Positions 23,893 to 44,880 of a DNA stretch of 64,000 bases are shown in pieces. Positions within the stretch are counted from its first letter, which is position 1. Each line of letters starts with the position of its first letter. A program made the position numbers and the translations under genes. Under the pieces are notes generated by a model that did not search any database, was not told where the DNA came from, and worked only from the letters and a program-made list of their open reading frames with translations. This DNA is from Candidatus Bathyarchaeia archaeon (GTDB lineage Archaea; Thermoproteota; Bathyarchaeia; 40CM-2-53-6), in contig JBEKVV010000001.1 in assembly GCA_049513715.1 (NCBI GenBank), forward strand, positions 128,001-192,000, given 5' to 3'.

Positions 23893-23959
23893 CTGCAATT
23901 AACAGGTCAGGCTTTGTAGGGAAAGCCTAATTTTCAGCTTCGGCATGCGATGAAGGTGA

Positions 23960-24060
23960 AGGTACCGGGGGAGCTGGGGTGACCCGGCTGAGAGGACGGC
24001 TAAGGTTGCCGTCGACCCCTGAGAACCTGATCCGGGTAATGCCGGCGTAGGGAGTGTCCA
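23960..24060 (+). ncRNA. TPP riboswitch aptamer
   Basis: GGGGGAGC...GCTGAGA...GACCC...AACCTGATCCGGGTAATGCCGGCGTAGGGAG matches the THI-box consensus; lies upstream of thiT. Confidence 0.95.
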
Positions 24061-24163
24061 AAATGGTAACACGCAAAGGAATCTGTTCCGGGTACGACTC
24101 TGAAAGAGTACAATCCACCGTCCCTGGTAACCTTCTGCAAACCAATGGAGGTGAAATTGGACG

Positions 24164-30555: not shown

Positions 30556-30712
30556 GTGAAACCGCACCTCGTGGAGAAGTGATTGAACTAGCTGATTGTT
30601 TGAATAAAAAAGATGTTCCAGAGTATCATTCCACTTTGCTTTCACTCACAATTGCATCGGGTTCTCTTGTCGGAAAGGTTGATATGATAACGGACCTGCA
30701 CCGTGCAGCGAT

Positions 30713-30850
30713 GGCCGCCGTAGCGTAGAGGAGTCCAACAACTCCACGAAACTTGGTAGCGTACAGACCATAAATGGGTACAAGGCTGTGGACCCTGCGG
30801 GGTGGGTTCAAAGCGCCCTCAAAAACGGCGTGAAACTCCCACCGGCGGCC
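30713..30850 (+). tRNA. tRNA-His(GTG) with three BHB introns (15/16, 29/30, 59/60)
   Basis: Removing 30729-30751, 30767-30783 and 30813-30836 gives G GCCGCCG TA GCGT AGCTTGGTA GCGT A CAGGG CTGTGGA CCCTG CGGG GTGGG TTCAAAT CCCAC CGGCGGC C. G-1:C73 is encoded, CCA is not. Confidence 0.9.
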
Positions 30851-30931
30851 CTCAAATTCCGGATGATTTTTCTGGCACTTGAACTCTAGAGATTGCAGTC
30901 TGTACGGATGGGATGTACAATCATAGATCAA

Positions 30932-31153
30932 ATGCAGCGTCGGACGGGACCGGGTTCGTGCGAAGTGTGTGGAAAACGCCCTGCAACTAGGAAAGCCAAA
31001 TTCACGGCGCAGTCCCTTGAATCGGCAGCGACCATGCCATTCGATGAGGAGGCTATGGTTGAAACGAATTTCGAGAAGAGGTTGTGTGAAGAATGTCTGG
31101 TGGCTCTGGGGAAAGCGAAGAATGTTTCAAATCTCGTTTCTGAACGGCTGTAG
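30932..31153 (+). CDS. Small zinc-finger protein
   Basis: CEVCGKRPAT...RLCEEC. Confidence 0.7.
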   Translation: MQRRTGPGSCEVCGKRPATRKAKFTAQSLESAATMPFDEEAMVETNFEKRLCEECLVALGKAKNVSNLVSERL

Positions 31154-31271
31154 ATTGCTGGAGTTTTCGTTGTGCGGTCTTGGGGTAGGATAACGAAAAC
31201 TGAGCTGCAACCTTTTTCGGTGCTATAGCTGGTAAGGGTTAAAGGTTCGAGCGAACGGGGTTAGGGGAAGT

Positions 31272-31388
31272 GGGCCGGTAGTTCAGCCTGGTATGCCAGA
31301 TCCTTACTGGGCCAAAGAATGTCCGGTTTGCAAGTTCTTACACCAAGAGTCCGGAAGGTCGCGGGTCCAAATCCCGCCCGGTCCACCA
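31272..31388 (+). tRNA. tRNA-Ala(TGC) with two BHB introns (21/22, 37/38)
   Basis: GGGCCGG/CCGGTCC acceptor with G3:U70; introns 31295-31316 and 31333-31349; mature anticodon loop TTTGCAT; CCA encoded. Confidence 0.9.
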
Positions 31389-31484
31389 AAAACCGCTTTG
31401 GCGCCTTGGGTCTATCGTGAAGCTGTGTTAAGGACTAGGCAACAGAAACCGCCTGACAGATCACTCGATTTCCGGCGGGAGGCA

Positions 31485-32090
31485 TTATTCCAGCGGCTTA
31501 TCGAATTGTGCTGTGCTTACTTTCTTGCGAGTCTCAGCCACCAGAGCCATGACAGTTGGTAGCTTGATTTTTTCGAGTTTCGAGAGTATGTCTTCAACTA
31601 TGCGTGCTCGTCGAACCTGTTCATTTCCAAGTGAATATTCTTCGTACGCCCAGAGCAGAGCTTCGATTTTGTCGGCTGCCTTGACGATGCTGGATTCCGT
31701 ATTTTCCATGTCGGCTGTGGCTTTTCTGATCTTGACATATTCGTGGGCAAGCTCCTCGGGAAGCCCTCCCATGAGGTTTTCGAACCATTCCATTGCGCGA
31801 GCATCCAACACCCCCGCGAAGGATGTATCCTGGTGTTTGAATGGGTGGTGAATATCTCCAGTTCTAGCTTCTTCTGCGTCGTGTAGCAAAGCCATTCTCA
31901 GTAGTCTTTCAACATTGACTTGGTTCCCATTCCTAATTTCGAGGTCTGCGAGAATCATTGCATAGAGAGCGGTGAAGTATGAATGCTGAGCTACATCTTC
32001 GCGGATATGGCACTTGTAGACGCTGAATCTTCCCACCGTCATTAGAGACCTTATTGCCAGCAGGAAATCAAGGACTTCTAGATCGACCAA
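31485..32090 (-). CDS. HD-domain 5'-deoxynucleotidase (YfbR-like)
   Basis: EDVAQHS, ALLHDAEEARTGD, VKAADKIE. Confidence 0.9.
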   Translation of the reverse strand: MVDLEVLDFLLAIRSLMTVGRFSVYKCHIREDVAQHSYFTALYAMILADLEIRNGNQVNVERLLRMALLHDAEEARTGDIHHPFKHQDTSFAGVLDARAMEWFENLMGGLPEELAHEYVKIRKATADMENTESSIVKAADKIEALLWAYEEYSLGNEQVRRARIVEDILSKLEKIKLPTVMALVAETRKKVSTAQFDKPLE

Positions 32091-32283
32091 TTCCTTTCAG
32101 AGGTCTCAAGCACTCATTGGATATTCAGGTTTTCGAATTGACCTATGAGCCGAAGTGTCAAGATTAGAATTGGATGAGCTAGCTGTTTCGGAGAATAACA
32201 GATGGCCGGAAAGACAAAGCTGCAATAGGCTGAACAGCAGCCGCTCGTCGGCTCTGTATCTGCGGTTCCCAAAAATGGGAGGT

Positions 32284-32436
32284 TTAGAGAACGGCTGGTG
32301 GAGGATTAGAGTATAATACTGGCACCGGGAACCTGTATGTGACGTAGTTCAGAGGGAAGTAGACTATAGGTAGCTGGTTGGGTGGCTGAAGTTCTACGGG
32401 CGTGTAGACTGGTCTAGCGAAATACACGTATGACAT
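32284..32436 (-). CDS. 50-aa Pro/Val/Tyr-rich microprotein (not in ORF track)
   Basis: MSYVYFARPVYTPVELQPPNQLPIVYFPLNYVTYRFPVPVLYSNPPPAVL*; start context AGAAATGTCATAC is identical to that at 45361. Confidence 0.65.
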   Translation of the reverse strand: MSYVYFARPVYTPVELQPPNQLPIVYFPLNYVTYRFPVPVLYSNPPPAVL

Positions 32437-32676
32437 TTCTAACACTATTCGCATTTAAGCCCAGTTTACTCGTGATAAAGGTTGTGCGAGCCGCACCATC
32501 CTTCGTGCCTTTTTCATCTTGAGCTTGCAGCTATAAATCAACACGTGGCTGTCAACGGGTTTTGACTTGCGGATGCATGTTTAATGTTGGTTGTCAAAGG
32601 CAAACCATCGCGTATAGGCGGATTTTTGCTTACCCCGAATGCGGCAACCGTTATGTGATTCGTAGACGGACCCTTA

Positions 32677-33645
32677 ATGTTCACTGAGGATTCAAGAATG
32701 GAAACCGTACCAGGCCTAATGCCGGCTCCAATGGTTGTAAGTGACAGATCTAAGCCAGTCGTGATTAGGCCGCCAGAAGTGAGCTCAGCTCATGATTTCG
32801 CCATGATCGCCTACATCCTGACGTTAATTCTCACTGTTCCGTGGCTCCTCATACTTGGAGTAATTGGGTACTATGGTGCCTTGAACGCCCTCTACCTGTA
32901 TGGTTATGGGGCTCCATACTTCCTGCCCCCGACTGTGCCATCATCAATCATAGGGATACCGCTCATCGGGCCATTCATCGCATTTCTCGTCTTCGTCCTC
33001 ACTCCCTCGTACATTACATACTTGGGCCTAGGAATCGGTGGCCTACTAATCCTCCTAATCTTCTTGCTCATCGTCTACTTCACCACCGTACGCAACATAA
33101 ACCGGGGCCGCTACGAGAGGGCCCGCAATGCCTCACTCTTCTGGGGCGTACTGTTCCTGCTACCCGCCTTCTTCGTCATATTCTCGCCAGTACTCACCGG
33201 AAGCATCGTAGGAATACTTCCAGCGTTCTTCTTCCTGCTAGCGTGGGGAAAACTCAGTGAAGTCATCGCGAAGTACGGGCCGGTCGCGGTTCTAGGTGAA
33301 GCTGTTCCAGGAGCCCCATTCGCGGGCCCACCAGGGCCACCGCCTCCACCAATGGGACTTCCAATGCCTCCACCGATGGGTGGACCGATGGGTGGACCCA
33401 TGGGTGGACCCATGGGTGGACCGATGGGAGCGCCAATGACTGCACCAATGGGAGGACCGATGCCCGCAGGTTCGATGCCACTCGGCGGACCAATGTCAGG
33501 AGGTCCCGCACCTATGCAACCCTCTCAACCGGCGGGTGCACCTTCAAGGATTCCACTGTGCCCGACCTGCGGCAAAGACCTCTACTACGCCGCTAACCAT
33601 AGACGCTGGTATTGCCAGACCTGCGATAACCCAGGCAACCGCTAA
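32677..33645 (+). CDS. Membrane protein with Pro/Met/Gly-rich tail and C-terminal zinc ribbon
   Basis: Several TM helices, PMGG repeats, CPTCG...WYCQTC. Confidence 0.85.
   Translation: MFTEDSRMETVPGLMPAPMVVSDRSKPVVIRPPEVSSAHDFAMIAYILTLILTVPWLLILGVIGYYGALNALYLYGYGAPYFLPPTVPSSIIGIPLIGPFIAFLVFVLTPSYITYLGLGIGGLLILLIFLLIVYFTTVRNINRGRYERARNASLFWGVLFLLPAFFVIFSPVLTGSIVGILPAFFFLLAWGKLSEVIAKYGPVAVLGEAVPGAPFAGPPGPPPPPMGLPMPPPMGGPMGGPMGGPMGGPMGAPMTAPMGGPMPAGSMPLGGPMSGGPAPMQPSQPAGAPSRIPLCPTCGKDLYYAANHRRWYCQTCDNPGNR
33373..33429 (+). repeat. 12-nt coding tandem repeat CC(G/C)ATGGGTGGA (PMGG), 4 copies plus a partial
   Basis: Directly visible; degenerate copies continue to about 33500. Confidence 0.9.
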
Positions 33646-33655
33646 ACCAGAACGT

Positions 33656-34507
33656 CTATCCAAACTCCCTCAATTGCTTGACACGGCCCAAGTAGGTTCC
33701 ATCGAGCAAGTGAACCTCAGCGTTATCCATGTCCACAGCCCCGGACCGAATCAAGGGTCCCAAACCTTCACTGGCATGAGCCTCTTCCATTCTTTTCGAG
33801 TTAACCGGCCGGCCTCCCAAGAAATCGTTGAAGGGCGGAACAAAGACACACCGCGAAACCTTGAGTTTCACATGAAAGTTCTCCTCTAACTGCTTTTCCA
33901 GGTCTCCCTTCGTCCTAATGCCCGCAGCTTTCAAAGTTCCCCGAAGTAGCTTTTTCGCGTCACAAGGTGCCATTACCCATGCAGGTTTCGTTAACCTGTA
34001 ACCCAAAGCATCACGCAATGTCACGGCAGGATGAAGATGGCCGAGAATTGCGGTTTCACACCCAAGTATTTCAGGCGATGGCCAAGCGTGGCCATGCAAC
34101 AACCCAAACCTACCCCAAAGTGCGATCCCCGTTGGCGAAAGTAACTCGACTTTCGACGGAGTTAACGGTTCTAGATTGCCGTCATGATTTCCAACGAGGA
34201 TCTGAACAGAGGGAACGAGTTTCACCAGGACTTCAAAGAACTCTGGAACATCTCGCCACTCCTCGAGCTCAGCCCCCGTGACGCTGTGTTTGACATCTCC
34301 TAGCATTATGAGGCGTGTGGGATGTTCTTTCTCGATTATTGCCTTGAGCCTCTGGAGCATCTTGGAGGTTTGCGAGGGAACATGAATCCCCTGCTGAGCC
34401 AATGAAACCTCCCAACCAATGTGAAGATCACCGACAACAACGACTCTCTCAGACCCTTTCCGCAGAAGCAGTGCGGGCTCAGAGCCAATTGGCTTGAGAG
34501 AACTCAA
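33656..34507 (-). CDS. Metallophosphoesterase (COG1407-like)
   Basis: GDLHIG, LGDVKH, GNHDG, HGH, GHLHP, PPFN. TTG 34507 is preferred because 34546-34558 looks like the tRNA-Gln promoter. Confidence 0.9.
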   Translation of the reverse strand: MSSLKPIGSEPALLLRKGSERVVVVGDLHIGWEVSLAQQGIHVPSQTSKMLQRLKAIIEKEHPTRLIMLGDVKHSVTGAELEEWRDVPEFFEVLVKLVPSVQILVGNHDGNLEPLTPSKVELLSPTGIALWGRFGLLHGHAWPSPEILGCETAILGHLHPAVTLRDALGYRLTKPAWVMAPCDAKKLLRGTLKAAGIRTKGDLEKQLEENFHVKLKVSRCVFVPPFNDFLGGRPVNSKRMEEAHASEGLGPLIRSGAVDMDNAEVHLLDGTYLGRVKQLREFG

Positions 34508-34586
34508 TTGAATTATCCTGCGAACATATGATCCGGTCTCAGACAAAAGGTTAGATAGCACTCGCGGTTTTCCACAATGACGTTGT

Positions 34587-34700
34587 AGCCCGGTGGTGTA
34601 GTGGACAGTTCAAACCCGCAGAAGCATAGAGGGCTTTGGACCCTCCGACGGGAGTTCGAATGGCATTGAAGAATGCCCGAAGGTCTCCCCCGGGCTACCA
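34587..34700 (+). tRNA. tRNA-Gln(TTG) with two BHB introns (D-loop 20a/20b, 59/60)
   Basis: AGCCCGG/CCGGGCT acceptor; GAGGG CTTTGGA CCCTC; introns 34607-34621 and 34661-34683; CCA encoded. Confidence 0.92.
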
Positions 34701-34702
34701 AC

Positions 34703-35020
34703 CTACTTCATCTTCAATTCTATGCCAACAGTTCGCTTGATGAGTTGCGCTAGAACATCGGCTTGCGCTTTCGCCCCACCCTTTGCAGGGATGGAGACTA
34801 CAAGCGGGAACTCTTTCTTGGTCCGTTCCAAGACTGGCTGAATCCACTCGAACACTGGCTCAGTGACCATGACAAGCGAGATCGTCTCATCCGAATGCAC
34901 TCTCCTAAACACTCTCTCCGCATCCTCCCGGTCTTTAACTGCGTAGCTATTCTTTATCCCGGTCACCTTGAAATATGCCGACGTAGCCCGATCGGAAATC
35001 AGCGCGATCCTTCCCGAAAT
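34703..35020 (-). CDS. atpF: A/V-type ATP synthase subunit F
   Basis: RIALISDRATSAYFKVTG...PLVVSIP...LIKRTVGIEL; homology extends upstream of the track GTG to an ATT at 35020. Confidence 0.85.
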   Translation of the reverse strand: MSGRIALISDRATSAYFKVTGIKNSYAVKDREDAERVFRRVHSDETISLVMVTEPVFEWIQPVLERTKKEFPLVVSIPAKGGAKAQADVLAQLIKRTVGIELKMK

Positions 35021-35053
35021 TCCTCACACTCCACTATAGCGTCCATGGGCAGA

Positions 35054-35521
35054 TTAGAATTGTCGCAGCACATCCTCACGTTCCATGATGTGCCCACAAT
35101 AGTGGCACCGTAAACGTATCGGTTCCTTCTGGTCCACGCCGAACTGTGGTTCAACAGGTTCTCTGGAATTTGATATACATGCAATGTTATCGCACTTCAA
35201 AATTCCTCTGATGTCGGGCGGAAGTTGCACAACCTTTTTCGAGACCACGCCGTAGTTTCTGATTATGTTGATTGTCGCATTTGGAGCAATCAAGGCGATT
35301 TTGTCGACCTCACCGGGCTTGAGCTCCCGATTCTGAATCTTCACAATATCCTTGTGCTGTTGCCGTTTGCTTTCCACATTCATAGCCACGCTCACAACCT
35401 CGCCGTCCTTGCCGTCGATGCCAAGGATCTTCAATACATCTAACGCGAACCCAGAGGTAATATGGTCGATGACGGAACCGTCTTCAATTTTCTTCACGTA
35501 CAGTTCTTGGCGCGCCTGCAA
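35054..35521 (-). CDS. pyrI: Aspartate carbamoyltransferase regulatory chain
   Basis: GSVIDHI, KDIVKI, APNATINII, CDNIACISN, RCHYC. Confidence 0.96.
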   Translation of the reverse strand: MQARQELYVKKIEDGSVIDHITSGFALDVLKILGIDGKDGEVVSVAMNVESKRQQHKDIVKIQNRELKPGEVDKIALIAPNATINIIRNYGVVSKKVVQLPPDIRGILKCDNIACISNSREPVEPQFGVDQKEPIRLRCHYCGHIMEREDVLRQF

Positions 35522-35592
35522 CGCTAGTCAGTTGATTAAGCCTCCCAAGAGTTATTTAACCATGAAAACCAACAAGAGGCTGGCGCTGACAC

Positions 35593-36513
35593 GTGGATTT
35601 CGCTGGGCGTGACATCGTTTCAATAAAGGATTTTTCACGTGAGGAAATTGACTTCGTTCTTCAGATGACAGATGTGGTTGAGCCTATGGCCAAGAACGGA
35701 TCGCACGGGCTCGACGGCAAGATTATGGCCACGCTATTCTTTGAGCCAAGCACCCGCACTAGGTTGAGCTTCGAATCCGCGATGTACCGCTACGGTGGCA
35801 AATGCTTGGGATTCGCGGAACCGAAGGTCGCCTCAGTTCAGAAGGGCGAAAACCTAGCGGACACGGTTCGAGTCGTGGAGAGCTATGCGGACGTTCTTGT
35901 TATTCGGCATCAGCTGGAAGGAGCCGCGCGTCTTGCGGCCGAATTCGCTTCCATACCCGTGATTAATGCAGGCACGGGTGCTGAGGAGCATCCGACACAG
36001 GCCATGCTCGACCTCTACACGATGCGTAAGGAATTTGGCAAGATTGATGGGTTGAACGTGGTTTTGGCCGGCGATCTGAGATACGGTCGCACGGTTCACT
36101 CGCTTGCATATGCACTCTCATTGTACGACATCAACCTGTACTTGGTTTCGCCTTCTATTCTTCGTATGAGGAAGGAGGTCCTTGAAGAAGTACAAGGTCG
36201 AATCAAGATTGAGGAGTTAGAGGACCTTTCGAAAGTCATGTCAAAGGCCGATGTCATCTATATGACCCGGATTCAGAAGGAACGGTTCGGGTCGCTGGAA
36301 GACTATGAGAAAGTCCGTGGGTCTTACCGGCTGACGGCTGAGGATTTGACGGTCGCGAAGCCAAACATGATCGTGATGCACCCGCTGCCTAGGGTTGACG
36401 AAATCGCGGATAGCGTGGACGGAACGCCCCATGCAAAATACTTCAAGCAAGTCTGGTATGGGTTGCTTGTCAGAATGAGCCTCATTGGATTAGTGTTGGG
36501 CGCCCTGAGCTAA
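35593..36513 (+). CDS. pyrB: Aspartate carbamoyltransferase catalytic chain
   Basis: FFEPSTRTRLSF, HPTQ, GDLRYGRTVHS, TRIQKER, MHPLPR. Confidence 0.97.
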   Translation: MDFAGRDIVSIKDFSREEIDFVLQMTDVVEPMAKNGSHGLDGKIMATLFFEPSTRTRLSFESAMYRYGGKCLGFAEPKVASVQKGENLADTVRVVESYADVLVIRHQLEGAARLAAEFASIPVINAGTGAEEHPTQAMLDLYTMRKEFGKIDGLNVVLAGDLRYGRTVHSLAYALSLYDINLYLVSPSILRMRKEVLEEVQGRIKIEELEDLSKVMSKADVIYMTRIQKERFGSLEDYEKVRGSYRLTAEDLTVAKPNMIVMHPLPRVDEIADSVDGTPHAKYFKQVWYGLLVRMSLIGLVLGALS

Positions 36514-36577
36514 GCGGATGTGTTACCTAAGGTAACGCTTATATGACGATCTCCGCCACCATGTTCCAGGATTAGGG

Positions 36578-37336
36578 ATGCGACTCGAAATTCAACCTGC
36601 ATCGCGAAAACGTCGAGTCCTGCCCATGCACGTCGTCAACTACACTGCTTTTCGCGTAGACTTCAAAACCAAGAATGAAGAGAGCGAACTACATCTATTG
36701 GAAAAGTTCCACGCCGCGAGAGTTCTATCTCGAGGCGGCGATGTAGATACTTATGTGGAACCCATACTCTACGACCCTGAAGAGCATTCGAGAAGACTGC
36801 TGACTGCGGACCTAGTAGGTATTCAGGAGGACAACCTCACCGCTGTCTTCTGCGAAACATCACCGCCGGACGAGGCATTGATGAAGGATTTGGAGGTTGT
36901 CGACGGTGCTGAGAATTCCAAAGCGGTCGTGGTTTATCCATTCAGAGTTGATGCTGAACCTATCGATTCAAAGTTCCCTGGCGCCATTGAAAGCGGCAAG
37001 GTAGTGATTGAGCACCTGAATTGGCGCGACCGCGGATTGGAGAAGGCGTTCCGCCAAGCATTGGAACTAATGGACCTTCTGTGCAACGAAACTCGCGTGA
37101 AGATGCTGCTCTCCCTCTTGGAGCACCCACAGGGGAAGAAGCATTTCAGGGAAGACATCAATCCTAAGCTGATCTACGAGAACGTCCCACTCCTGAGAAC
37201 ACACAACATGATAGATGAGCTGTCCGACGACCTGTACGGACTAACGCCGATCGGCACGACGATTCTAGGAGAGTACCTAGCTTTCGTCGAGAAAGTGCGA
37301 GACCTTCTGGAGAAGGGAGACAAGGAAGAAGAGTAA
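36578..37336 (+). CDS. Hypothetical protein: nuclease-like N-terminal domain plus C-terminal winged HTH
   Basis: TADLVG...AVFCET resembles PD-(D/E)xK strands; NETRVKML...YGLTPIG is a wHTH wing. Confidence 0.6.
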   Translation: MRLEIQPASRKRRVLPMHVVNYTAFRVDFKTKNEESELHLLEKFHAARVLSRGGDVDTYVEPILYDPEEHSRRLLTADLVGIQEDNLTAVFCETSPPDEALMKDLEVVDGAENSKAVVVYPFRVDAEPIDSKFPGAIESGKVVIEHLNWRDRGLEKAFRQALELMDLLCNETRVKMLLSLLEHPQGKKHFREDINPKLIYENVPLLRTHNMIDELSDDLYGLTPIGTTILGEYLAFVEKVRDLLEKGDKEEE

Positions 37337-37342
37337 ACGTAG

Positions 37343-37840
37343 GTGGTTCGTTTGAATACGATAGCTGAAGGCCTAGACAAATGTGAGAACTTTGTAGACG
37401 TATTCGAACTCGTCAAGAAGACTGCTGAGAGATCATTGGGTCAACGCCGGGCAGGTCTCATGCTCTACTTGGCCAGACTGCCGAGACACATTGGAGCGTT
37501 CCATACGATGGGGACGAATGGGATTGTGATGAACAGAAACACGTTGGACATAGTCACTCACGGCGCGCGTTCGCTGAGGGAAATCAACTCCTATGTCTAC
37601 TCGATCTTGCTTCACGAGTACCTGCACTCACTTGGGTACGTGGAAGAAAGTGATGTTCGAAAGCTAGTATACGATGTCTCACTCGACGCCTTCGGCCCAG
37701 AGCATCCAGCTACACAAATCGCCTCGAAAGGCCCAAGCGCGGTGTTCCCGGACATTGTTCTAAATGAGTCGCCGACGCAGGACCCTGAAATCGAAGTGAT
37801 CCCTGACTTAGAGGGAAGTAGCCACAGATACATCAGCTAG
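37343..37840 (+). CDS. Zincin-like (HExxH) conserved archaeal protein
   Basis: LLHEYLHSLG...E. Confidence 0.75.
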   Translation: MVRLNTIAEGLDKCENFVDVFELVKKTAERSLGQRRAGLMLYLARLPRHIGAFHTMGTNGIVMNRNTLDIVTHGARSLREINSYVYSILLHEYLHSLGYVEESDVRKLVYDVSLDAFGPEHPATQIASKGPSAVFPDIVLNESPTQDPEIEVIPDLEGSSHRYIS

Positions 37841-37846
37841 CAGAAA

Positions 37847-40120
37847 CTAGCTGGCGAGCGTGTACTCTATTCTCTTGTCCGCGCTCCGCCTCTTTGACTC
37901 GGGCCAAAGATTGAAGGGGAGGAGCCCGTAGGACGCACGGCCAATGTAGGTCAGTTTGTCAGACCCGCATTTGCCGCATTTCGGACCTGTACCCCGGTCG
38001 GTGTTGCCGCAGGCAGTACAAGCGGAGTAGTTCGACGTGTAAGTCAGGAACTTGCAGCCTGCTTGAAAGGCCGCCTCAGTAGTCTTCAGTAAACCCGAGC
38101 CCGAAGAATCTGGCGCCGTACAAATTACGCTCAAATGTCCACCTGGTGTCGCTGATTGGAATTTCGATTCAATTCTTAGCCTAATCTCAATGGGCACCTT
38201 AGCTGTGAGTGGAACGGTGGGCATATCCGTATAGTGAAACAAACCCCGTGACCCATCAGCTACAATTACTGCTCTACCATACTCTTCGATGTCCAATTCA
38301 GCAAGCCGTCCCACAGCTTCATCTCCTGGCCGCTGCGAAACGCGAATTCTCATGTCCGCTTCTTCCGAAGCATCTTTGACGAGCTTCGATGATTCCTCCA
38401 GAATCCTCAAACCGAAATCCACTGCAATCTTGTCCCGATCTATCCTCTGCCCTGTGTGAGCCTCCACCGCCTCGCTAATACCGATCAGAGACAGATTGTA
38501 GGAAGCATTCTTCTCGTAAAAGTAAGGAGCCGAGGAGCTTCCACCTGCCAGCAGAGGCAGCAGTGGCTGCTTGAGCCGTTCGCCGACAAACCTCTTCTTT
38601 GCTTTGAAGCCCTCCACACTTAATGAGATCGATTCCTTGAGTAATGCAAGGAACTTCTCATCGCTCTTTTTTGAGTTGTAAGCAATCCGTGGAAGGTTGA
38701 GGAAGATCGTATCCATGCTCCCCGTTCTAATGCAGTCCGCGTCCCAGTGGCCAGTCCAGTCGTCAGAAATCCTTAGCCCTGTCGCGGAGTAGCTGCTCTT
38801 CTCCCCGTCGCCGATTAGCTCAAAGTAGGGAACACTCCTTGAAGCTGCGAGCTCATGTGCTTTTTCCAAAATCTTCCTAGTTTTCGGGTCGTCTAGCTCC
38901 TTGTGTCTGATTCTTATGATCAGGTGGGGCTGGATTGGCGGCCTAGCCTCAGACACTGTTCGGAAGGCTTCAACGGTTGCCTCGGCCAGCCTGAAGCTCT
39001 CATCTTGGAAATCTGCGTAATGGCCGCTAACTTTTCCTCCGGGCCCAATCGCTTCCTCTTGTGAGAGGAATTCTGGCATTTCTAGGTCAATGGTGAACGA
39101 GGTACCTGATTGTGGGCTGCCTGAGGTAATGTCTCTTCTAATTGATGTGAGAAAATAGGTTAGTGCCTTCGTCGTATCATCCAATTTCCTTCCTCGAACG
39201 TACGGGGCAAGGAATGTGTTGAGATATTCGAGCGTTTGTTCACCGGAGACTTCTCCCGAACCCATGTCGAGCACTTGTCTCACCAGAGTCAAAGCTCCCT
39301 CGAATGTTTCTGGAGGCTCTGTTCCTGGAAGGCTATTGCGTAAGAAATAGCGAAGGTCATGGACGATTTCGTTTGGTTTGAGTATCCAATTCTCTAGGTT
39401 TGCGATGTGTATCGATCCTGATAGGTGTGCGTCAGCCAGCTTATGGGGTAAGCAATTCAGCAAGACATACTCGGAGAGCACGGATTTAGCGGAAGAACGA
39501 TGAACGAAGTCCGCACTTAACTGGCTATCGCCCGCATTTCGAATAAGCTGAGCGACATCATAGACGGGCATGCCGAGCCTCGTGAGTTTGTGGCGATACT
39601 CCTCCAGCCTCTTCTCGATGAGGATGGCGTTTACGAATTCGCGAATCAAAGGCGCTGTCAAGTACACAGTCCTCAACCTAATGAGGCGGTCCTCTGCTTC
39701 CGCGGCAATTTCATCAGCAATTTCCTGCGGGACACCTGCCTCCACCACAAGGGATTTGGCGATCTTGTTGCGGTGAAATTCCTCTATCGCGAGTCTGGAT
39801 GTACGAACGTAGAGTTTACCGCGCTTCACGTTCACATATTCGTCCATGTCTCTTGCGAATGAGACGATCATTCGGCCGAGTTCAGTCAGCTCGTACTTCT
39901 TTGTCTTCTTATCCAGCGTGACCAAGCCAGTGCTTGTTAGACTTCGAAGATGGTAGACGAATTTGCCAGCGTCGCGGACAGGGTCGAGCTTCAGTTGAAA
40001 CATTATTTCTGTATACTGGAGTGAGCCCTTGATCGAAAGCAGTCGCAATATTTGTAGTCGAACGGGCGCCGACGCGGCGTCAAAGATGCTGGCACCGACT
40101 CTCTCCGATGAACGTTGCAA
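37847..40120 (-). CDS. ArsR-type HTH + ATP-cone + class III ribonucleotide reductase (NrdD)-like protein, catalytic residues absent
   Basis: RLQILRLL...YHLRSL...YELTELG (wHTH); VRTS...EEFHRNKI...TAPLIRE (ATP cone); DAHLSGSIHI, LNLPR, TPGGH, CTAC...CGKC (NrdD body). Confidence 0.88.
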   Translation of the reverse strand: MQRSSERVGASIFDAASAPVRLQILRLLSIKGSLQYTEIMFQLKLDPVRDAGKFVYHLRSLTSTGLVTLDKKTKKYELTELGRMIVSFARDMDEYVNVKRGKLYVRTSRLAIEEFHRNKIAKSLVVEAGVPQEIADEIAAEAEDRLIRLRTVYLTAPLIREFVNAILIEKRLEEYRHKLTRLGMPVYDVAQLIRNAGDSQLSADFVHRSSAKSVLSEYVLLNCLPHKLADAHLSGSIHIANLENWILKPNEIVHDLRYFLRNSLPGTEPPETFEGALTLVRQVLDMGSGEVSGEQTLEYLNTFLAPYVRGRKLDDTTKALTYFLTSIRRDITSGSPQSGTSFTIDLEMPEFLSQEEAIGPGGKVSGHYADFQDESFRLAEATVEAFRTVSEARPPIQPHLIIRIRHKELDDPKTRKILEKAHELAASRSVPYFELIGDGEKSSYSATGLRISDDWTGHWDADCIRTGSMDTIFLNLPRIAYNSKKSDEKFLALLKESISLSVEGFKAKKRFVGERLKQPLLPLLAGGSSSAPYFYEKNASYNLSLIGISEAVEAHTGQRIDRDKIAVDFGLRILEESSKLVKDASEEADMRIRVSQRPGDEAVGRLAELDIEEYGRAVIVADGSRGLFHYTDMPTVPLTAKVPIEIRLRIESKFQSATPGGHLSVICTAPDSSGSGLLKTTEAAFQAGCKFLTYTSNYSACTACGNTDRGTGPKCGKCGSDKLTYIGRASYGLLPFNLWPESKRRSADKRIEYTLAS

Positions 40121-40265
40121 CTCAATACCGCCTAGAAGGTGAATTACAAGTACTATAGGCATGGGGTTATGTTTAAAAAATTGTAGTTGCGTGCATCTCG
40201 ACAGATTACGTACAGTTTATTTGAGATTAATCAAGCCGTGGCGCCGTCGACAGCCGAGAGTGGAG

Positions 40266-40792
40266 ATGAAGAACTTGGGCGAATTGCGCATGAACGAAGC
40301 CGATTACGCGAAACTCGCAGAGCTAGAAGACGCCTTCGAAAGGAAGGACCTTGAATACTTCAAGACTTTCCTAGGAAAATCGAGTGGTCTTCCCTTGCTG
40401 TTGCGTGTTCACTCTGTCTGCATGTTAGAGCACATGGGAAACGAAGACATTGTGAAGGCACTTGGTCAGGTCTTGAGAGATGACCCTAGCCCACTAACAA
40501 GGCATGAAGCAGCCTTCACCCCGGCCAGCTAGGTTTCCGCTCAGCCGTACCAGCACTTGTTGAAGCAATGCTCGAGGACGAGAGCCCCATTGTACGGCAT
40601 GAGTCGGCGGTAGCCCTAAGCTCGATTGGGGCAGAAGATGCGCTCCCTGAACTGGAACGAGCAATCAACGATAAGAACGAGGATGTCAGCAACTCTGCTC
40701 TTATTGCCTCCGAATATTTGACCTATCTGAGTCGAAAACGTGATAGTGTCAGCAAAGTCGGAGCGACCTTGAAACCTAAGATTCGCCTATAG
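40266..40792 (+). pseudogene. HEAT-repeat protein resembling half of deoxyhypusine hydroxylase; 1-nt frameshift (real or sequencing error)
   Basis: RHEAAFT continues as GQLGFRSAVPALVEAMLEDESPIVRHESAVALSSIG if one base is added at 40519-40522. Confidence 0.75.
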
Positions 40793-40875
40793 TAAGGAAT
40801 CTGCTGCGCGTCGGTATGAGGCACTGGCCGCGATCGCGGAAGGATTTAAGGAAGTGGATGTTTCCTTGGGGATTA

Positions 40876-41046
40876 GGGGCGGTGGTCCAGACCGCGAGTC
40901 AACCCGCGTGGGGACAACTTGGTCTAAGATAGCGCGAGACGCCTTAAAACCGGTCTCGGGGCCAGTTGCCTGAAACGGCGAGCACACCGGTGATCGAGGG
41001 TTCAAAATGATCGCAAACGATCATGACAATCCCTCCCGCCCCACCA
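40876..41046 (+). tRNA. tRNA-Pro(CGG) with four BHB introns (15/16, 25/26, 37/38, 59/60)
   Basis: Removing 40891-40917, 40931-40948, 40961-40984 and 41007-41029 gives a 79-nt cloverleaf: GGGGCGG TG GTCC AGCTTGGTCTA AGAT A CCGGT CTCGGGC ACCGG TGATC GAGGG TTCAAAT CCCTC CCGCCCC A CCA. Confidence 0.9.
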
Positions 41047-41103
41047 ATATGATGAGAACAAAGCCAAGATGGACGGCCTCCTTAATGGTGAACCTCAAGC
41101 TGA

Positions 41104-42093
41104 ATGGGCTCTGAGGGAAATGCGGGGATGCAAATGAGGCTTCGAACGGTCACTGCTCTATTTGGATTGATTTTCATCGTCACGCAAGCAACAGCGCAAC
41201 CTCACATTTACGCTCAAATCGTTGATCCGCAACTGCAAAGCCGTCTCTCAAGACTTGAAGATTTCCTAGTGAATCAATTCAATGCCACAGTCGGATTAGT
41301 CAGGGAATCACCTGACCATTCAATCAGTCGAGACTACTGGCTCCTGTCAGATAATTTAATCGCCATGCATGTCTTAGCGAAAGATCACCCAGAGATCGCG
41401 GTAAGAATCAATCAGACTATGCAGAAATTCGGAATATTCACCGACGGCCTACACGAAGCACTATTCGGAGCTGCCATACCGCTGCTCCCATACACGCCAA
41501 TAGTCAAGGTGGCCGAAAATGATTCATACCTTGTGAAAGTTGAGGTCAGAAGCAATGAGACGGGGAAGCTGCAACCGGACTGGACCGAATACGCTGACCT
41601 CTCAATCTACGCTGCGCTGAGCGCTCACAATACGGGCAACGATCAGCTCGCAATCTACTATTTCAACCGAGCCTTACAGATGTGGAATGGCGCGGGACTA
41701 TGGGACCGCCCAACACAGGAAGACGGATTCTATACGACGAGTAAACTCGCGTTGCTCATGTACGCGGCTGACATGCTGAATCAAACAATTCCCTACAGGA
41801 CCACGCTTGAAGACCATATTTGGCTATTCCAAAGGGAGGATGGCGGCATACGGTCGCACTACTTGGGTAATTTGACTTCGAACAGGGAAGCGAACAGTGA
41901 AACCGCTGGCCTAGGCCTCTTAGCCTATCAATACAAAATCCAGAAGGACATTCTCCAAGCAAACAGACAGGCGCAGATAATCGCAGAACAGCAAGCAGCA
42001 GCCAGAACGCAACTCATAGAGACCATAATCATAGCCGCAGTCGCTGCACTCGTTTTGGGGCTGATGCTTCTCAGGAAGATGAAAGCTCGATGA
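41104..42093 (+). CDS. Secreted, C-terminally anchored protein, possibly alpha/alpha-toroid
   Basis: Signal peptide, YWLLSDN, EYADL, WNGAG, FQREDGG, NSETA, C-terminal TM plus basic tail. Confidence 0.7.
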   Translation: MGSEGNAGMQMRLRTVTALFGLIFIVTQATAQPHIYAQIVDPQLQSRLSRLEDFLVNQFNATVGLVRESPDHSISRDYWLLSDNLIAMHVLAKDHPEIAVRINQTMQKFGIFTDGLHEALFGAAIPLLPYTPIVKVAENDSYLVKVEVRSNETGKLQPDWTEYADLSIYAALSAHNTGNDQLAIYYFNRALQMWNGAGLWDRPTQEDGFYTTSKLALLMYAADMLNQTIPYRTTLEDHIWLFQREDGGIRSHYLGNLTSNREANSETAGLGLLAYQYKIQKDILQANRQAQIIAEQQAAARTQLIETIIIAAVAALVLGLMLLRKMKAR

Positions 42094-42329
42094 GATGGAA
42101 ACTTTCCATTCTGAGTCTTGCGGCTGCTGGAATAGGAAAACGACAGTAATGAAATCGCTCAGAAACGAGCCGATTTGCGAGCAACTCACCGCACCTATGC
42201 GGTGGGGTTCTCCCGCCCCATCAAAATAAGACGTATCTGCTTTGAAAGTCACCAATAGTCTTGAGTCGGAATAAACCTCATTCTAGTTTGAGCAACCCAA
42301 TTCACCTCGAACACCCAACCGGAGAATGG

Positions 42330-43085
42330 TCATTCCTCGTATCCCGCATGCATGAACGCATGCGGTGCACCAAAAGATGGAATGAAAACATCCTCGAATC
42401 TTATATTCGAGAGGAGCTGCCTACTCGCACTATCCACGAGGCTCTTCTCTCGTTGACTGTGAGCAAGCCCAACTGATGACCCAATGTATTGACTGCAGCG
42501 GCCGCTGCATTTTTCCTTGATGTCAGAATATGCTCGTTTCAATGGATTTGAATTGCGCTTAATCCAAAACGGCCGCTCAGTAAGGTCGATGATCGCCGCG
42601 TCGAACTCCTCGTTAACGGAATGAAGGTATTCGAAAGCATCGCCGATCACGATTCTGACTCTGGAGTCTTTGAACGCTCGGTTTACTCCTTTGATGTACT
42701 TCCGGCAACATTCAACAACCATTGGGTCGATCTCAATGACGGTGACGTGCTCAACTGAAGAAGATTCAAGCAATGCCTGCACTGTCTGACCGCTTCCACC
42801 TCCAAGCACGACAACACGGGCAACCTGATTTCTCTTAGCAGTACCACAGAGGGCTTCATTGAAGATACGTGAATCATAGGCGGTATGCTGAACATTACCG
42901 TCGAGGAACAACATCCTACCGTAGGAATCATTGTCGATTATGTCTATTTTCTGATATTTCGAACGTTCCGAGAAACAGAATCTCTTGGCATGATACGCGA
43001 GATGTAATCCAGGATAAGGTTGGTACACAATGTACTCGGATTTGTCAAAGCACACCTTGCGTCCGCTAATTGACATATGCTTCAC
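42330..43085 (-). CDS. speE: Spermidine synthase-like aminopropyltransferase
   Basis: SKYQKI, YGRMLFLDG, VLGGGSG, EIDP, GDAFEY, IIDLTE, IPSFG. Confidence 0.8.
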   Translation of the reverse strand: MKHMSISGRKVCFDKSEYIVYQPYPGLHLAYHAKRFCFSERSKYQKIDIIDNDSYGRMLFLDGNVQHTAYDSRIFNEALCGTAKRNQVARVVVLGGGSGQTVQALLESSSVEHVTVIEIDPMVVECCRKYIKGVNRAFKDSRVRIVIGDAFEYLHSVNEEFDAAIIDLTERPFWIKRNSNPLKRAYSDIKEKCSGRCSQYIGSSVGLAHSQREKSLVDSASRQLLSNIRFEDVFIPSFGAPHAFMHAGYEE

Positions 43086-43136
43086 TGAATGGGAAGAAAA
43101 TAATCTATATTAGACCTCTGTCGTGCATTTCAGGTA

Positions 43137-43922
43137 ATGAATCGTCCACTCTATAGCCAGCTCGTTGCTTACTATGAACTCGTCGAAGGCCGGGACTGGA
43201 AGAGTGAGGTCAACCTCATTGGTTCTGTTTTGACGAATTACGGGTCAGAATCTGTAGTTGATCTGGGGTGCGGAACTGGATACCATGTGAGAGCCTTAAC
43301 GAAGCTAGGATTCGAGGCAACTGGGATTGATATCTCGAAACAAAACATCCAGTTCGCCAGAAAGAGAGCAAAAGAGGAAAACATTCGCCCGAGCTTTGTT
43401 GACGGTAGCTACTACAAATTTCGCCCCGGTCGTGTTTTTGACGCGGCTCTCTGTTTGAACTGGTCTATCCCCGTAAGGGACGATGAAGTGAAACGGTTTC
43501 TTGATAATACGTACCACTTGCTTCGCCCCGGAGGATTGCTGATTTTCGACTTTGAGAAGGTCTCGGAAATTGTCTGGAGCGACGTTGGAAAGGCAATCAC
43601 GGAGTCATGGGATCAGCCAGGTAAGCTGATTGTAAGAGTTTCAGTTGGACATATAGCCTCAAAAGTACTATGTTCAAAGGACGTTTACCTGATCTACTGG
43701 AAGTCTTCCGAACCGACGCTGCCGGATGAGAGGTCAAGATATGAAGTTGTCAGGCAGAGCAAACGTGTTCAGATATATGTCGACAATTCCTGTGTGCGGT
43801 TCTTTTCGATGCCAGAGATAAGAGACTTCGCACGACTTTCTGGGTTCAAGACGATAGCTAATTTCGTTCTTCCGAGGAATAAGTACAAGCGGACCTATTC
43901 TGTCCTCAAGAAAGTTACCTAG
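43137..43922 (+). CDS. Class I SAM-dependent methyltransferase
   Basis: VDLGCGTG, GIDIS, LRPGGLLIFD. Confidence 0.9.
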   Translation: MNRPLYSQLVAYYELVEGRDWKSEVNLIGSVLTNYGSESVVDLGCGTGYHVRALTKLGFEATGIDISKQNIQFARKRAKEENIRPSFVDGSYYKFRPGRVFDAALCLNWSIPVRDDEVKRFLDNTYHLLRPGGLLIFDFEKVSEIVWSDVGKAITESWDQPGKLIVRVSVGHIASKVLCSKDVYLIYWKSSEPTLPDERSRYEVVRQSKRVQIYVDNSCVRFFSMPEIRDFARLSGFKTIANFVLPRNKYKRTYSVLKKVT

Positions 43923-43991
43923 GTGACGTTGCACATTCTGGATCCGTGAGTGTCTGGACTGGTTGGGCGTGCAGGCTTGGTCCCGTTTGTT

Positions 43992-44645
43992 CTACCTGAA
44001 TCTCGTTCCGCATCTGTCGCAGAAGCTAGCATAGTACGCTAGTGGTGCTCCGCAGGTTGGGCACGAACCAAAGGCCCCGGGTTGTTGGAAGGGCACTTGC
44101 TGTGGTTGCGGGTAGTAGGGTTGTGGTGCAGGTTGCGGAAAAGCTGTGGGTGGGTAGGCAGCTGGCGGGTATGGGGGCGAGGCAGGAGGATACATTGGTA
44201 CGCCTGGTCGTGCTATTAGGGGAGGTCCAACGGGTCGCCCGAAGAAAGCTCGCACATTGGCCGTGCTGAGGTAGGCGAGAATCAGCCCGTAGAAGATTAT
44301 CGGGATGACGTTGGCAAGGCTACCGAAAATCAACCCCACGATTGCGATTATGAGGCCGATAATTGAGATTATCATTGTAGCTGTCCACGCCCACGGCCGC
44401 CCGGTCCAGAGCCCGTAAGCCAACACGAATGAGATGAATCCGAACGCGAAATAGGCTATGGCTAGAGGAATCAGAAAGAAAGCGAAGGCCGCTGAGAACC
44501 CCATGCCAACAAATGATAGGGCGAACGCGTAAACCGCCAAAAGAATGATACCGATCAATATGTCAATGAAACCAACAAGGATCTGCAGTACTGTCAGAAT
44601 CGTAACGCCAGGCAGCCTTGGAGGCCGGAACATGACTGGGATCAT
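43992..44645 (-). CDS. Membrane protein with Pro/Tyr/Gln-rich tail and zinc ribbon
   Basis: 4 TM (GLWTGRPWAW), YPPASPPYPP..., CPTCG...FCDRCG. Confidence 0.85.
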   Translation of the reverse strand: MIPVMFRPPRLPGVTILTVLQILVGFIDILIGIILLAVYAFALSFVGMGFSAAFAFFLIPLAIAYFAFGFISFVLAYGLWTGRPWAWTATMIISIIGLIIAIVGLIFGSLANVIPIIFYGLILAYLSTANVRAFFGRPVGPPLIARPGVPMYPPASPPYPPAAYPPTAFPQPAPQPYYPQPQQVPFQQPGAFGSCPTCGAPLAYYASFCDRCGTRFR

Positions 44646-44728
44646 CGGGCTACTCCTCGGATTTTCTATCTTGCTTCAGGGTGTTAAGAAACCTTCGAAT
44701 AGATACGTGCTTGGTCGGTATTGGTCGT

Positions 44729-44880
44729 TGGTAGCGGGGGGTGGATGTTCGGGCGTTCTTGTGGCCTTTCGAACCACCGTTTGAGGAGCCTTCGCGGCTC
44801 AATCTCAGGGTTTCTCGCCAGGATATGAGCCCTCCGCACTGAAGGGTTCTGCGGGTTAAACCTGGCTACCCCACCCCGCT
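44729..44880 (-). tRNA. Initiator tRNA-Met(CAT) with four BHB introns (29/30, 37/38, 47/48, 59/60)
   Basis: Removing 44832-44848, 44812-44823, 44780-44801 and 44746-44767 gives AGCGGGG TG GGGT AGCCAGGTTTA ACCC G CAGGG CTCATAA CCCTG AGATC GGTGG TTCGAAT CCACC CCCCGCT A CCA; A1:U72 and three G-C anticodon-stem pairs. Confidence 0.92.

What the first reader, a model, noticed from the sequence alone, without database searches (positions are those of the whole stretch)
30713..44880. Extreme tRNA intron load: 15 BHB introns in five tRNA genes
Seen: every tRNA found here is multiply interrupted (His 3, Ala 2, Gln 2, Pro 4, iMet 4) by introns of 12-27 nt. Each has a 4-nt central helix and 3-nt bulges, and cutting after the second bulge base restores a cloverleaf. 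Positions recur: 59/60 in four genes, 37/38 in three, 15/16 and 29/30 in two each. Known: archaeal EndA splices BHB motifs, relaxed motifs at non-canonical sites need (alpha-beta)2 or epsilon2 enzymes, and multi-intron tRNAs are best known from Thermoproteales with up to three introns as far as I recall. Inference: this lineage has a very permissive splicing system and ongoing intron gain, perhaps shielding tRNA genes from integrating elements. Standard tRNA callers may miss these genes.
Basis: partly seen in the sequence, partly recalled or inferred. Interest (0 to 1): 0.9.

Follow-up and report, generated by a model that had tools for sequence, protein, structure and literature searches.

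The report
Archaeal tRNA genes with four introns
Five real transfer-RNA genes of an uncultured peat archaeon (Bathyarchaeia) are cut by 15 tiny introns, up to four per gene, which is more than the published maximum of three and explains why standard tRNA finders miss most tRNA genes of this lineage.

Summary
Window 30713-44880 carries tRNA-His (3 introns), Ala (2), Gln (2), Pro-CGG (4) and initiator Met (4; on the minus strand), with 15 introns of 12-27 nt. Removing them in silico gives cloverleafs that ARAGORN calls with the stated anticodons (5 of 5, against 0 of 5 unspliced). Rfam finds only Ala.

Relatives give the strongest support. Exons are almost invariant and introns variable. BHB helices keep pairing through compensatory changes. 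For 12 of 15 introns some relative has that exact site uninterrupted, including two fully intronless tRNA-Gln genes (Rfam 59-60 bits).

The genome encodes a catalytic alpha and a His-less beta EndA subunit, with the Crenarchaea-specific-loop lysine, plus RtcB. I found no intronless copies of the five tRNAs.

My partial census of the genome resolves 29 tRNA genes with 68 introns. Seven genes have four introns and one has none. The published limits I found are "up to three" per gene and 71 introns in 46 genes.

The mechanism is the known BHB/EndA one, so this is an extreme new member of a known kind. No RNA data exist. Intron turnover is shown, but neither its direction nor the "shielding" idea is. 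Earlier notes of this scan already recorded three-intron tRNA genes elsewhere in this genome.

The parts
30713..30850 (+). tRNA-His(GTG) gene. G-1 at 30713, position 1 at 30714, position 72 at 30849, discriminator C at 30850. No encoded CCA. Three introns.
30729..30751 (+). His intron 1, 23 nt, D-loop 15/16. Relaxed HBh' motif (central helix 3 of 4 pairs, inner helix 5 bp). The border could slide.
   Evidence: relatives L114, L115 and L120 have 4 of 4 pairs at this site
30767..30783 (+). His intron 2, 17 nt, 29/30. Strict BHB (4,5,3).
   Evidence: site uninterrupted in L128, L132 and L134
30813..30836 (+). His intron 3, 24 nt, T-loop 59/60. Strict BHB (4,6,4).
   Evidence: site uninterrupted in G013 (L126)
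31272..31388 (+). tRNA-Ala(TGC) gene with G3:U70. Discriminator at 31385, encoded CCA at 31386-31388. Two introns.
31295..31316 (+). Ala intron 1, 22 nt, junction of D-loop and D-stem (about 21/22). Relaxed motif (4,0,4).
31333..31349 (+). Ala intron 2, 17 nt, canonical 37/38. Strict BHB (4,5,2).
34587..34700 (+). tRNA-Gln(TTG) gene. Discriminator A at 34697, encoded CCA at 34698-34700. Two introns.
34607..34621 (+). Gln intron 1, 15 nt, 3' part of the D-loop. Relaxed motif (4,0,2). The border is fixed by intronless orthologues.
   Evidence: (L157, L158)
34661..34683 (+). Gln intron 2, 23 nt, 59/60. Strict BHB (4,5,6).
40876..41046 (+). tRNA-Pro(CGG) gene. Discriminator A at 41043, encoded CCA at 41044-41046. 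Four introns.
40891..40917 (+). Pro intron 1, 27 nt, 15/16. Motif (4,1,5).
   Evidence: site uninterrupted in L042, L046, L047, L048 and L052
40931..40948 (+). Pro intron 2, 18 nt, 25/26. Relaxed motif (4,0,3).
   Evidence: site uninterrupted in the same five relatives
40961..40984 (+). Pro intron 3, 24 nt, 37/38. Strict BHB (4,6,2).
   Evidence: site uninterrupted in L045
41007..41029 (+). Pro intron 4, 23 nt, 59/60. Motif (3,5,6).
   Evidence: site uninterrupted in L045
44729..44880 (-). Initiator tRNA-Met(CAT) gene on the minus strand. A1 at 44880, U72 at 44733, discriminator A at 44732, encoded CCA at 44731-44729. A1:U72 and three G-C pairs at the base of the anticodon stem. Four introns.
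44832..44848 (-). iMet intron 1, 17 nt, 29/30. Motif (4,1,2).
   Evidence: site uninterrupted in L096 and L098
44812..44823 (-). iMet intron 2, 12 nt, 37/38. Relaxed hBH motif (3,4,1).
   Evidence: site uninterrupted in L099
44780..44801 (-). iMet intron 3, 22 nt, variable loop 47/48. Strict BHB (4,2,5).
   Evidence: site uninterrupted in L102 and L103
44746..44767 (-). iMet intron 4, 22 nt, 59/60. Strict BHB (4,5,3).
   Evidence: site uninterrupted in L102 and L103

Best explanation
These are five functional, single-copy tRNA genes of a peat-soil Bathyarchaeia archaeon, each interrupted by two to four short archaeal-type introns.

Inferred pathway: each gene is transcribed as one precursor. 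At every intron the flanking exon bases and the intron fold into a bulge-helix-bulge motif or a relaxed form of it (HBh' or hBH). The heterotetrameric (alpha-beta)2 splicing endonuclease cuts after the second base of each 3-nt bulge. Its catalytic subunit carries the lysine-bearing 'Crenarchaea-specific loop' known to allow relaxed motifs at any position. RtcB then joins the exons.

The motifs form independently of one another, so no fixed order of removal is required.

The heavy load is a trait of the lineage, strongest in this family and order. Intron content turns over between relatives.

Shown here: gene structure, motif, conservation pattern, and presence of the enzymes. Inferred: the splicing itself, since no RNA data exist.
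For: 1. Spliced products are canonical tRNAs.
- ARAGORN of 5 with the right anticodon and 0 of 5 unspliced.
- Identity marks are present: G-1 in His, G3:U70 in Ala, A1:U72 plus three G-C pairs in iMet.

2. This is not chance. There were 0 hits at score 28 or more in six shuffled windows, against 4 hits at 31-32 in the real window.

3. Motifs.
- 12 of 15 introns have a 4-bp central helix and 7 of 15 are strict hBHBh'.
- The ViennaRNA minimum-energy fold of the iMet precursor draws the BHB of introns 3 and 4 unaided (my reading of the dot-bracket string). Z-scores are -2.6 (iMet) and -3.7 (Pro).

4. Relatives.
- Invariant columns: 324 of 374 in exons against 82 of 306 in introns, summed over five alignments of 15-28 distinct sequences. 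12 of 15 introns show a helix pair with changes on both sides.
- All 19 full-length genus sequences of tRNA-Pro keep insertions at all four sites, with indels confined to the intron loops.
- The mature iMet sequence is identical in 8 genes that carry 3 or 4 introns.
- 12 of 15 intron sites are uninterrupted in at least one relative, with the exon sequence running on as predicted.
- tRNA-Gln is intronless in G031 and G039, scores 59.9 and 59.3 bits in Rfam, and differs from the predicted spliced product at 3 positions, two of them a compensating pair (my reading).

5. Co-occurring strains in four peat/wetland DNA runs: 18 of 19 substitutions and 11 of 11 indels on these genes fall inside predicted introns.

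6. No contiguous copy of any of the five mature sequences exists elsewhere in the genome.

7. Enzymes.
- Two EndA paralogues are present.
- Alpha gives E 2.5e-41 to A. pernix 3P1Z_B. The His that is mutated in 3AJV and the lysine aligned to K44 are both conserved (K44 is named in PMC5829648).
- Beta lacks the His.
- RtcB scores 578 bits.
Against: - No RNA evidence: no RNA run holds this DNA. Splice junctions, circular introns and mature tRNAs are therefore unobserved.
- Eight of 15 motifs are relaxed, and three central helices have a mismatch.
- The borders of the D-loop introns of His and Ala are not unique.
- Three introns (His 15/16 and both Ala introns) have no intron-free orthologue among those examined.
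- The finder that defined introns in relatives is my own, untested against tRNAscan-SE or SPLITS. It failed on many loci: 17 of 30 for iMet, 5 of 28 for His, 7 of 30 for Gln, 5 of 30 for Ala.
- EndA specificity is inferred from alignment only.
Confidence: 0.9

Rival explanations
1. The loci are decaying tRNA pseudogenes or mobile-element scars with random insertions. They are not spliced, and the working tRNAs lie elsewhere or in unassembled DNA.
For: Standard tools do not recognise four of the five. The genome has many tRNA-derived fragments (earlier notes). It is a MAG with 8.8% estimated contamination.
Against: - Exons are nearly invariant over 15-28 relatives while the inserts vary and keep BHB pairing.
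- No other copy of the five mature sequences exists in a 99.4%-complete genome.
- iMet and His are indispensable single isoacceptors.
- The same interrupted genes occur in about 20 genomes of the genus.
Confidence: 0.03
2. The genes are real and spliced, but some of the relaxed 'introns' are wrongly delimited. The count or positions then differ from 15: one longer insert may have been read as two, or the borders may be shifted.
For: Alternative borders score equally for the D-loop introns of His and Gln. Eight motifs are relaxed.
Against: - Twelve of 15 sites are pinned by relatives in which that site is continuous.
- Every gene needs exactly this number of excisions to restore a 73-76 nt cloverleaf.
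- Shifts of a few bases do not change the count.
Confidence: 0.1
3. Assembly or binning artefact: chimeric contigs or strain mixtures created the insertions.
For: Assembly graphs break at these tRNA genes in the public runs (table 8).
Against: The 10-kb stretch is held at word share 1.00 in 24 runs of 23 studies. Long contigs cross the genes. Orthologues in independent assemblies have the same structure.
Confidence: 0.01

Closest known systems
Multi-intron tRNA genes of Thermoproteales (Pyrobaculum, Thermofilum, Caldivirga). Sources: Sugahara 2007/2008 as cited in PMC4033280; tRNAscan-SE 2.0 paper PMC8450103.
   Same: Short BHB or relaxed-BHB introns at canonical and many non-canonical positions. 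Several introns per gene. An (alpha-beta)2 EndA with the specific loop. Most tRNA genes of the genome are affected.
   Different: - The published maximum is three introns per gene, and the record is 71 introns in 46 genes (P. calidifontis), with a Thermoproteales mean of 0.84 per gene (passages).
- Here seven genes have four introns, and 29 resolved genes carry 68 introns, or 2.3 per gene.
- The host is a peat/wetland Bathyarchaeia, not a hyperthermophile.
Non-canonical tRNA introns of Thaumarchaeota and Aigarchaeota, including the Caldiarchaeum subterraneum model of tRNA gene disruption (PMC3293823, seen as a search listing and abstract only; PMC8450103 passages).
   Same: TACK-lineage archaea with (alpha-beta)2 EndA and non-canonical introns. 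Population-level differences in intron content. A proposed link with mobile elements.
   Different: The loads described there are far lower. I found no report of four-intron genes.
Disrupted nuclear tRNA genes of the red alga Cyanidioschyzon merolae (PMC3728597, passages).
   Same: Ectopic and multiple BHB introns in the D-arm, at 37/38 and in the T-loop. Stepwise removal was shown there by RT-PCR.
   Different: It is a eukaryote. The maximum is three introns per gene: 27 intron-containing genes, three of them with three introns. Permuted genes are also present there; I found none here.

Membership tests
Archaeal EndA-spliced (BHB) tRNA introns | Exon-intron boundaries fold into hBHBh' or a relaxed HBh'/hBH motif: two 3-nt bulges separated by a 4-bp helix. 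| tested here: met
   12 of 15 have 4 of 4 central pairs and 3 of 15 have 3 of 4. Seven are strict and eight relaxed. All have at least one outer helix of 2 bp or more. Pairing is kept in relatives, with two-sided changes in 12 of 15.
Archaeal EndA-spliced (BHB) tRNA introns | Cutting after the second bulge base and joining the exons restores a canonical cloverleaf. | tested here: met
   ARAGORN of 5 in the window and 29 of 29 in the genome census. Intron-free orthologous sites exist for 12 of 15 introns. Intronless Gln orthologues score 59-60 bits in Rfam.
Archaeal EndA-spliced (BHB) tRNA introns | The genome encodes a splicing endonuclease able to cut relaxed motifs, and an RNA ligase. | tested here: met
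   Alpha and beta EndA. RtcB.
Archaeal EndA-spliced (BHB) tRNA introns | The introns are actually removed from the RNA (junctions, circular introns). | not testable with these tools
   No RNA run is listed for this DNA.
(alpha-beta)2 heterotetrameric EndA with the Crenarchaea-specific loop (L1) | Two separate subunit genes, each with the N-terminal and catalytic-type domains. | tested here: met
   Proteins of 186 aa and 192 aa, both matching PF02778 and PF01974.
(alpha-beta)2 heterotetrameric EndA with the Crenarchaea-specific loop (L1) | Alpha keeps the Tyr-His-Lys catalytic residues. Beta is non-catalytic. | tested here: met
   Alpha aligns through the Tyr, the GIDHAPF His (Ala in the 3AJV mutant) and the VRK Lys. 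In beta the His column is a gap or non-His in the alignment to 5X89 (triad named in PMC5829648).
(alpha-beta)2 heterotetrameric EndA with the Crenarchaea-specific loop (L1) | An inserted loop with a conserved lysine (A. pernix K44) that confers broad substrate specificity. | tested here: met
   K39 of the alpha subunit aligns with K44 of 3P1Z_B, without a gap in the loop beyond one residue (my residue count). The function of the lysine is taken from PMC6379350 passages.
(alpha-beta)2 heterotetrameric EndA with the Crenarchaea-specific loop (L1) | The subunits assemble as a heterotetramer and cut relaxed BHB motifs. | not tested
   No complex prediction or assay was run.

The most novel reading that the evidence does not exclude
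One order of Bathyarchaeia, and this family above all, holds the densest tRNA-intron load of any known organism: more than two introns per gene and at least seven four-intron genes in one genome. The load is kept in flux by mobile cassettes that insert into tRNA genes and swap intron-bearing gene halves for intron-free ones. tRNA introns and tRNA-targeting elements would then be in an arms race that can be read directly from natural peat populations.
Probability: 0.3. Interest if true: 0.75.

Novelty: new member of a known kind. Interest (0 to 1): 0.6.

Why it matters
1. It raises the known ceiling for tRNA gene fragmentation by introns from three to four per gene, and from about 1.5 to more than 2 per gene across a genome. 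It also moves the phenomenon from hyperthermophilic Thermoproteales to abundant mesophilic soil and peat archaea.

2. It has a practical cost. The Rfam model sees only 15-18 tRNAs in a 99%-complete genome, and 10-20 in all 15 genomes of the family. tRNA counts used to grade MAG quality, and codon or decoding inferences for these archaea, will therefore be wrong unless intron-aware callers are used.

3. The many relatives with 0 to 4 introns in the same gene give a natural series for studying how BHB introns are gained and lost, and what a loop-bearing (alpha-beta)2 EndA can tolerate.

Tried and rejected
- RNA evidence: the look-up of sequencing runs listed no RNA holder, so splicing could not be observed.
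- DNA contigs: I looked for intron-less alleles. The only joint was 40905 to 40978, skipping 72 bases, in one contig of depth 5.5 with a side of 30. It does not match any intron border and is left unexplained.
They also built false 'tRNAs' of score 27-29 with 4-5 jumps from ordinary sequence. I therefore accepted only scores of 30 or more.
- I dropped six parses with a long variable arm on a class-I or unknown anticodon: AAA C1:340146-340373, AGC C3:44658-44785, CCC C2:478445-478666, CGG C4:150379-150585, GGG C4:128274-128445, and the 3-intron parse of Lys-TTT.
- The census is partial.
  - The strict pass took at most 4 introns and no long variable arms.
  - The CCA-anchored pass covered only the 25.6% of the genome outside ORFs of 150 aa or more. 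It timed out on 11 strand-chunks.
They include two Met-CAT genes and a Ser-TGA gene that show inserts by eye.
- I looked for sequence similarity between the four 59/60 introns as a sign of intron transposition. By eye they share only the constrained central-helix bases.
- Rfam did not report the one-intron iMet orthologues L102 and L103 or the one-intron Gln L155 at gathering score.
- The 314-aa ORF of the G013 cassette gave no Pfam family and no PDB relative. Its homing-endonuclease nature rests only on two LAGLIDADG-like motifs that I recognise from memory.
- Complex prediction, structure prediction and the large protein searches were not used.

Full report
**What is there**

ARAGORN finds no tRNA in the window. 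Rfam finds one, at 31272-31385, with two large insertions. I wrote a cloverleaf matcher that may jump over a candidate intron only where the sequence can form the archaeal splicing motif. The rules are:
- The four exon bases before the 5' bulge pair with four intron bases before the 3' bulge.
- Each 3-nt bulge is cut after its second base.
- At least one outer helix is present.

The matcher recovers these genes:
- tRNA-His(GTG), 30713-30850, 3 introns.
- tRNA-Ala(TGC), 31272-31385, 2 introns.
- tRNA-Pro(CGG), 40876-41043, 4 introns.
- Initiator tRNA-Met, 4 introns, on the minus strand, 44880 down to 44732.

These score 31-32 of 32. tRNA-Gln(TTG), 34587-34697, with 2 introns, needed looser motif rules. 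The total is 15 introns of 12-27 nt.

ARAGORN calls all five in-silico spliced products with the expected anticodons and none of the unspliced genes. Six dinucleotide shuffles of the window gave nothing at score 28 or more. In the real genome, scores of 28-29 were noise and scores of 30 or more were plausible tRNAs.

**Quality of the motifs**

Twelve of 15 introns have a full 4-bp central helix and three have one mismatch. Seven are strict hBHBh' motifs. The rest lack one outer helix, which makes them the relaxed HBh'/hBH classes. Removing the other introns changes the motif score of only two, each by one outer pair. The motifs can therefore form independently.

An unconstrained ViennaRNA fold of the iMet precursor draws the BHB of introns 3 and 4 (my reading of the dot-bracket string). 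Both the iMet and the Pro precursor fold better than shuffles, with z-scores of -2.6 and -3.7.

**Comparative evidence**

The EndA alpha gene's 28 nearest loci in public genomes are titled Candidatus Bathyarchaeia or Bathyarchaeota MAGs in 26 cases, mostly from peat and soil projects. The other two look mis-binned. The DNA itself is held in 24 peat and wetland metagenome runs.

I searched the five genes in 40 relatives and parsed the loci with the same finder.

- **Pro(CGG).** All 19 full-length genus sequences keep insertions at all four sites, and the indels sit in the intron loops. Of 11 partial loci outside the genus, 7 were resolved.
  - Five have only the 37/38 and 59/60 introns.
  - One (G024) has only the two D-arm introns.
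  - One is a four-intron Pro(GGG).
- **iMet.** 13 of 30 loci were resolved. Relatives carry 4, 3, 2 or 1 introns, and the joined exon sequence is identical in 8 of them.
- **His.** 23 of 28 loci were resolved. Most have 3 introns. Within the genus G013 and G001 have 2 and G015 has 4.
- **Gln.** 23 of 30 loci were resolved, with 0 to 3 introns. The two intronless genes (G031, G039) score 59.9 and 59.3 bits in Rfam, and they fix the D-loop border.
- **Ala.** 25 of 30 loci were resolved, all with the same two introns.

In sum, 12 of the 15 intron sites are seen uninterrupted in some relative, with the exon sequence continuing as predicted.

Over the five alignments, 324 of 374 exon columns are invariant against 82 of 306 intron columns. 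Twelve of 15 introns show at least one helix pair changed on both sides.

Strain variants in four DNA runs put 18 of 19 substitutions and 11 of 11 indels inside predicted introns. The single exception turns a G-U pair of the Ala D-stem into G-C.

No contiguous copy of any of the five mature sequences lies elsewhere in the genome.

**The enzymes**

The genome has two EndA paralogues, each with both Pfam domains.

The 186-aa protein matches the catalytic subunit of the A. pernix heterotetramer (3P1Z_B, E 2.5e-41). It keeps the His that is replaced in the 3AJV mutant, and it has a lysine aligned to K44 of the Crenarchaea-specific loop. According to the passages I read, that lysine confers the ability to cut relaxed motifs (PMC6379350; PMC5829648).

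The 192-aa protein lacks the catalytic His. RtcB is present at 578 bits.

This is the (alpha-beta)2 type. I saw no epsilon2 enzyme.

**Genome-wide load**

Rfam sees 18 tRNAs at gathering score in a genome rated 99.4% complete.

My census combined three searches: a strict pass over the whole genome, a follow-up at weak Rfam hits, and a CCA-anchored pass outside long ORFs. It resolves 29 tRNA genes, and ARAGORN confirms all 29 after in-silico splicing. They carry 68 introns, distributed as follows:

| Introns per gene | Genes |
|---|---|
| 0 | 1 |
| 1 | 7 |
| 2 | 9 |
| 3 | 5 |
| 4 | 7 |

The four-intron genes are Pro-CGG, Pro-GGG, iMet, Glu-CTC, Gln-CTG, Lys-TTT and Leu-CAG. Fifty-three of the 68 introns are non-canonical.

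About 17 expected tRNAs remain unresolved, so 68 is a lower bound. It also rests on a home-made tool.

As a rough proxy for the spread of the trait, I counted Rfam-detectable tRNAs in genomes at least 90% complete. At most 37 candidates were scored per genome.
- This family: 10-20 in all 15 genomes.
- Other families of the order: 13-27 in 21 genomes.
- Other orders of the class: 25 or more in 71 of 85 genomes.

**Comparison with what is known**

[quoted passage not shown] It also states that P. calidifontis has the most, 71 in 46 genes, and that Thermoproteales average 0.84 per gene (PMC8450103 passages). Fujishima and Kanai 2014 give "a maximum of three introns" (PMC4033280 passages). C. merolae also stops at three (PMC3728597 passages).

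Six full-text searches found no paper on tRNA introns in Bathyarchaeia and none reporting a four-intron tRNA gene. The one paper that matched Bathyarchaeota only lists the phylum in a footnote. I could not run tRNAscan-SE or look into GtRNAdb, so an uncatalogued prior record cannot be excluded.

The mechanism is the known one. What is new is the degree and the host lineage.

A permissive enzyme is supported by inference. Turnover of introns is shown; its direction is not.

For shielding I have only a side observation. In G013 the tRNA-His gene lacks the 59/60 intron. It is followed by a 314-aa antisense ORF and then by a displaced old 3' part that still carries that intron. A 32%-identical ORF exists in this genome.

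It shows that mobile DNA both targets these genes and changes their intron content. It is not evidence that introns protect.

Earlier notes of the scan had already recorded three-intron Gly, Asn and Tyr genes in this genome. My census agrees for Gly-CCC and Asn-GTT.

Noticed in passing
window 23957-24071 (+): TPP riboswitch, Rfam RF00059, 68.5 bits against a gathering score of 54.3. I did not look at the gene it controls, nor at how usual this is in Bathyarchaeia.
   Followed up: no
L126 (G013:C9) 1506-1620, 1627-2571 (-), about 2625-2676: In a relative of the same genus, tRNA-His lacks the 59/60 intron. It is followed at once by a 314-aa antisense ORF with no Pfam or PDB relative, then by a displaced tRNA-His 3' fragment that still carries a 59/60 intron. 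This looks like a mobile cassette that brought a replacement intron-free 3' half. G015 (L127/L137) also has a second partial His 3' copy about 1 kb away.
   Followed up: partly
G000 C4:140877-141578 (-): A 282-aa open frame 32% identical to the G013 cassette ORF (E 5.9e-29).
   Followed up: no
G000 C4:149703-149724, C4:150376-150394, C5:206499-206519, C3:166055-166075, C3:181344-181364, C3:427306-427325, C2:373502-373522: Seven 19-22 nt exact copies of the spliced (intron-free) T-arm and 3' acceptor part of tRNA-His (positions 49/50 to 67-70). At least one lies inside another tRNA gene (Pro-GGG at C2:373349-373525). The others may be the tRNA-tail repeats or attachment sites described in earlier notes.
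   Followed up: no
window 31386-31388, 34698-34700, 41044-41046, 44729-44731: Four of the five genes encode the 3' CCA; His does not. Most other tRNA genes of the genome that I looked at also encode it.
   Followed up: partly
window 30680-30689, 31239-31244, 34551-34557, 40845-40849: A/T-rich TATA-like boxes lie 24-36 nt upstream of His, Ala, Gln and Pro, read by eye. None is obvious upstream of iMet. Not tested against chance.
   Followed up: no
window 40905 to 40978: One low-depth contig (5.5x, run X20) joins these two points and skips 72 bases, from inside Pro intron 1 to inside intron 3. It fits no predicted splice border. It may come from another strain or a paralogue.
   Followed up: no
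L043 (G036:C16) and L127 (G015:C35): Four-intron tRNA genes also occur in relatives: Pro(GGG) in another family of the order, and His(GTG) with an extra 44/45 intron in the same genus.
   Followed up: partly
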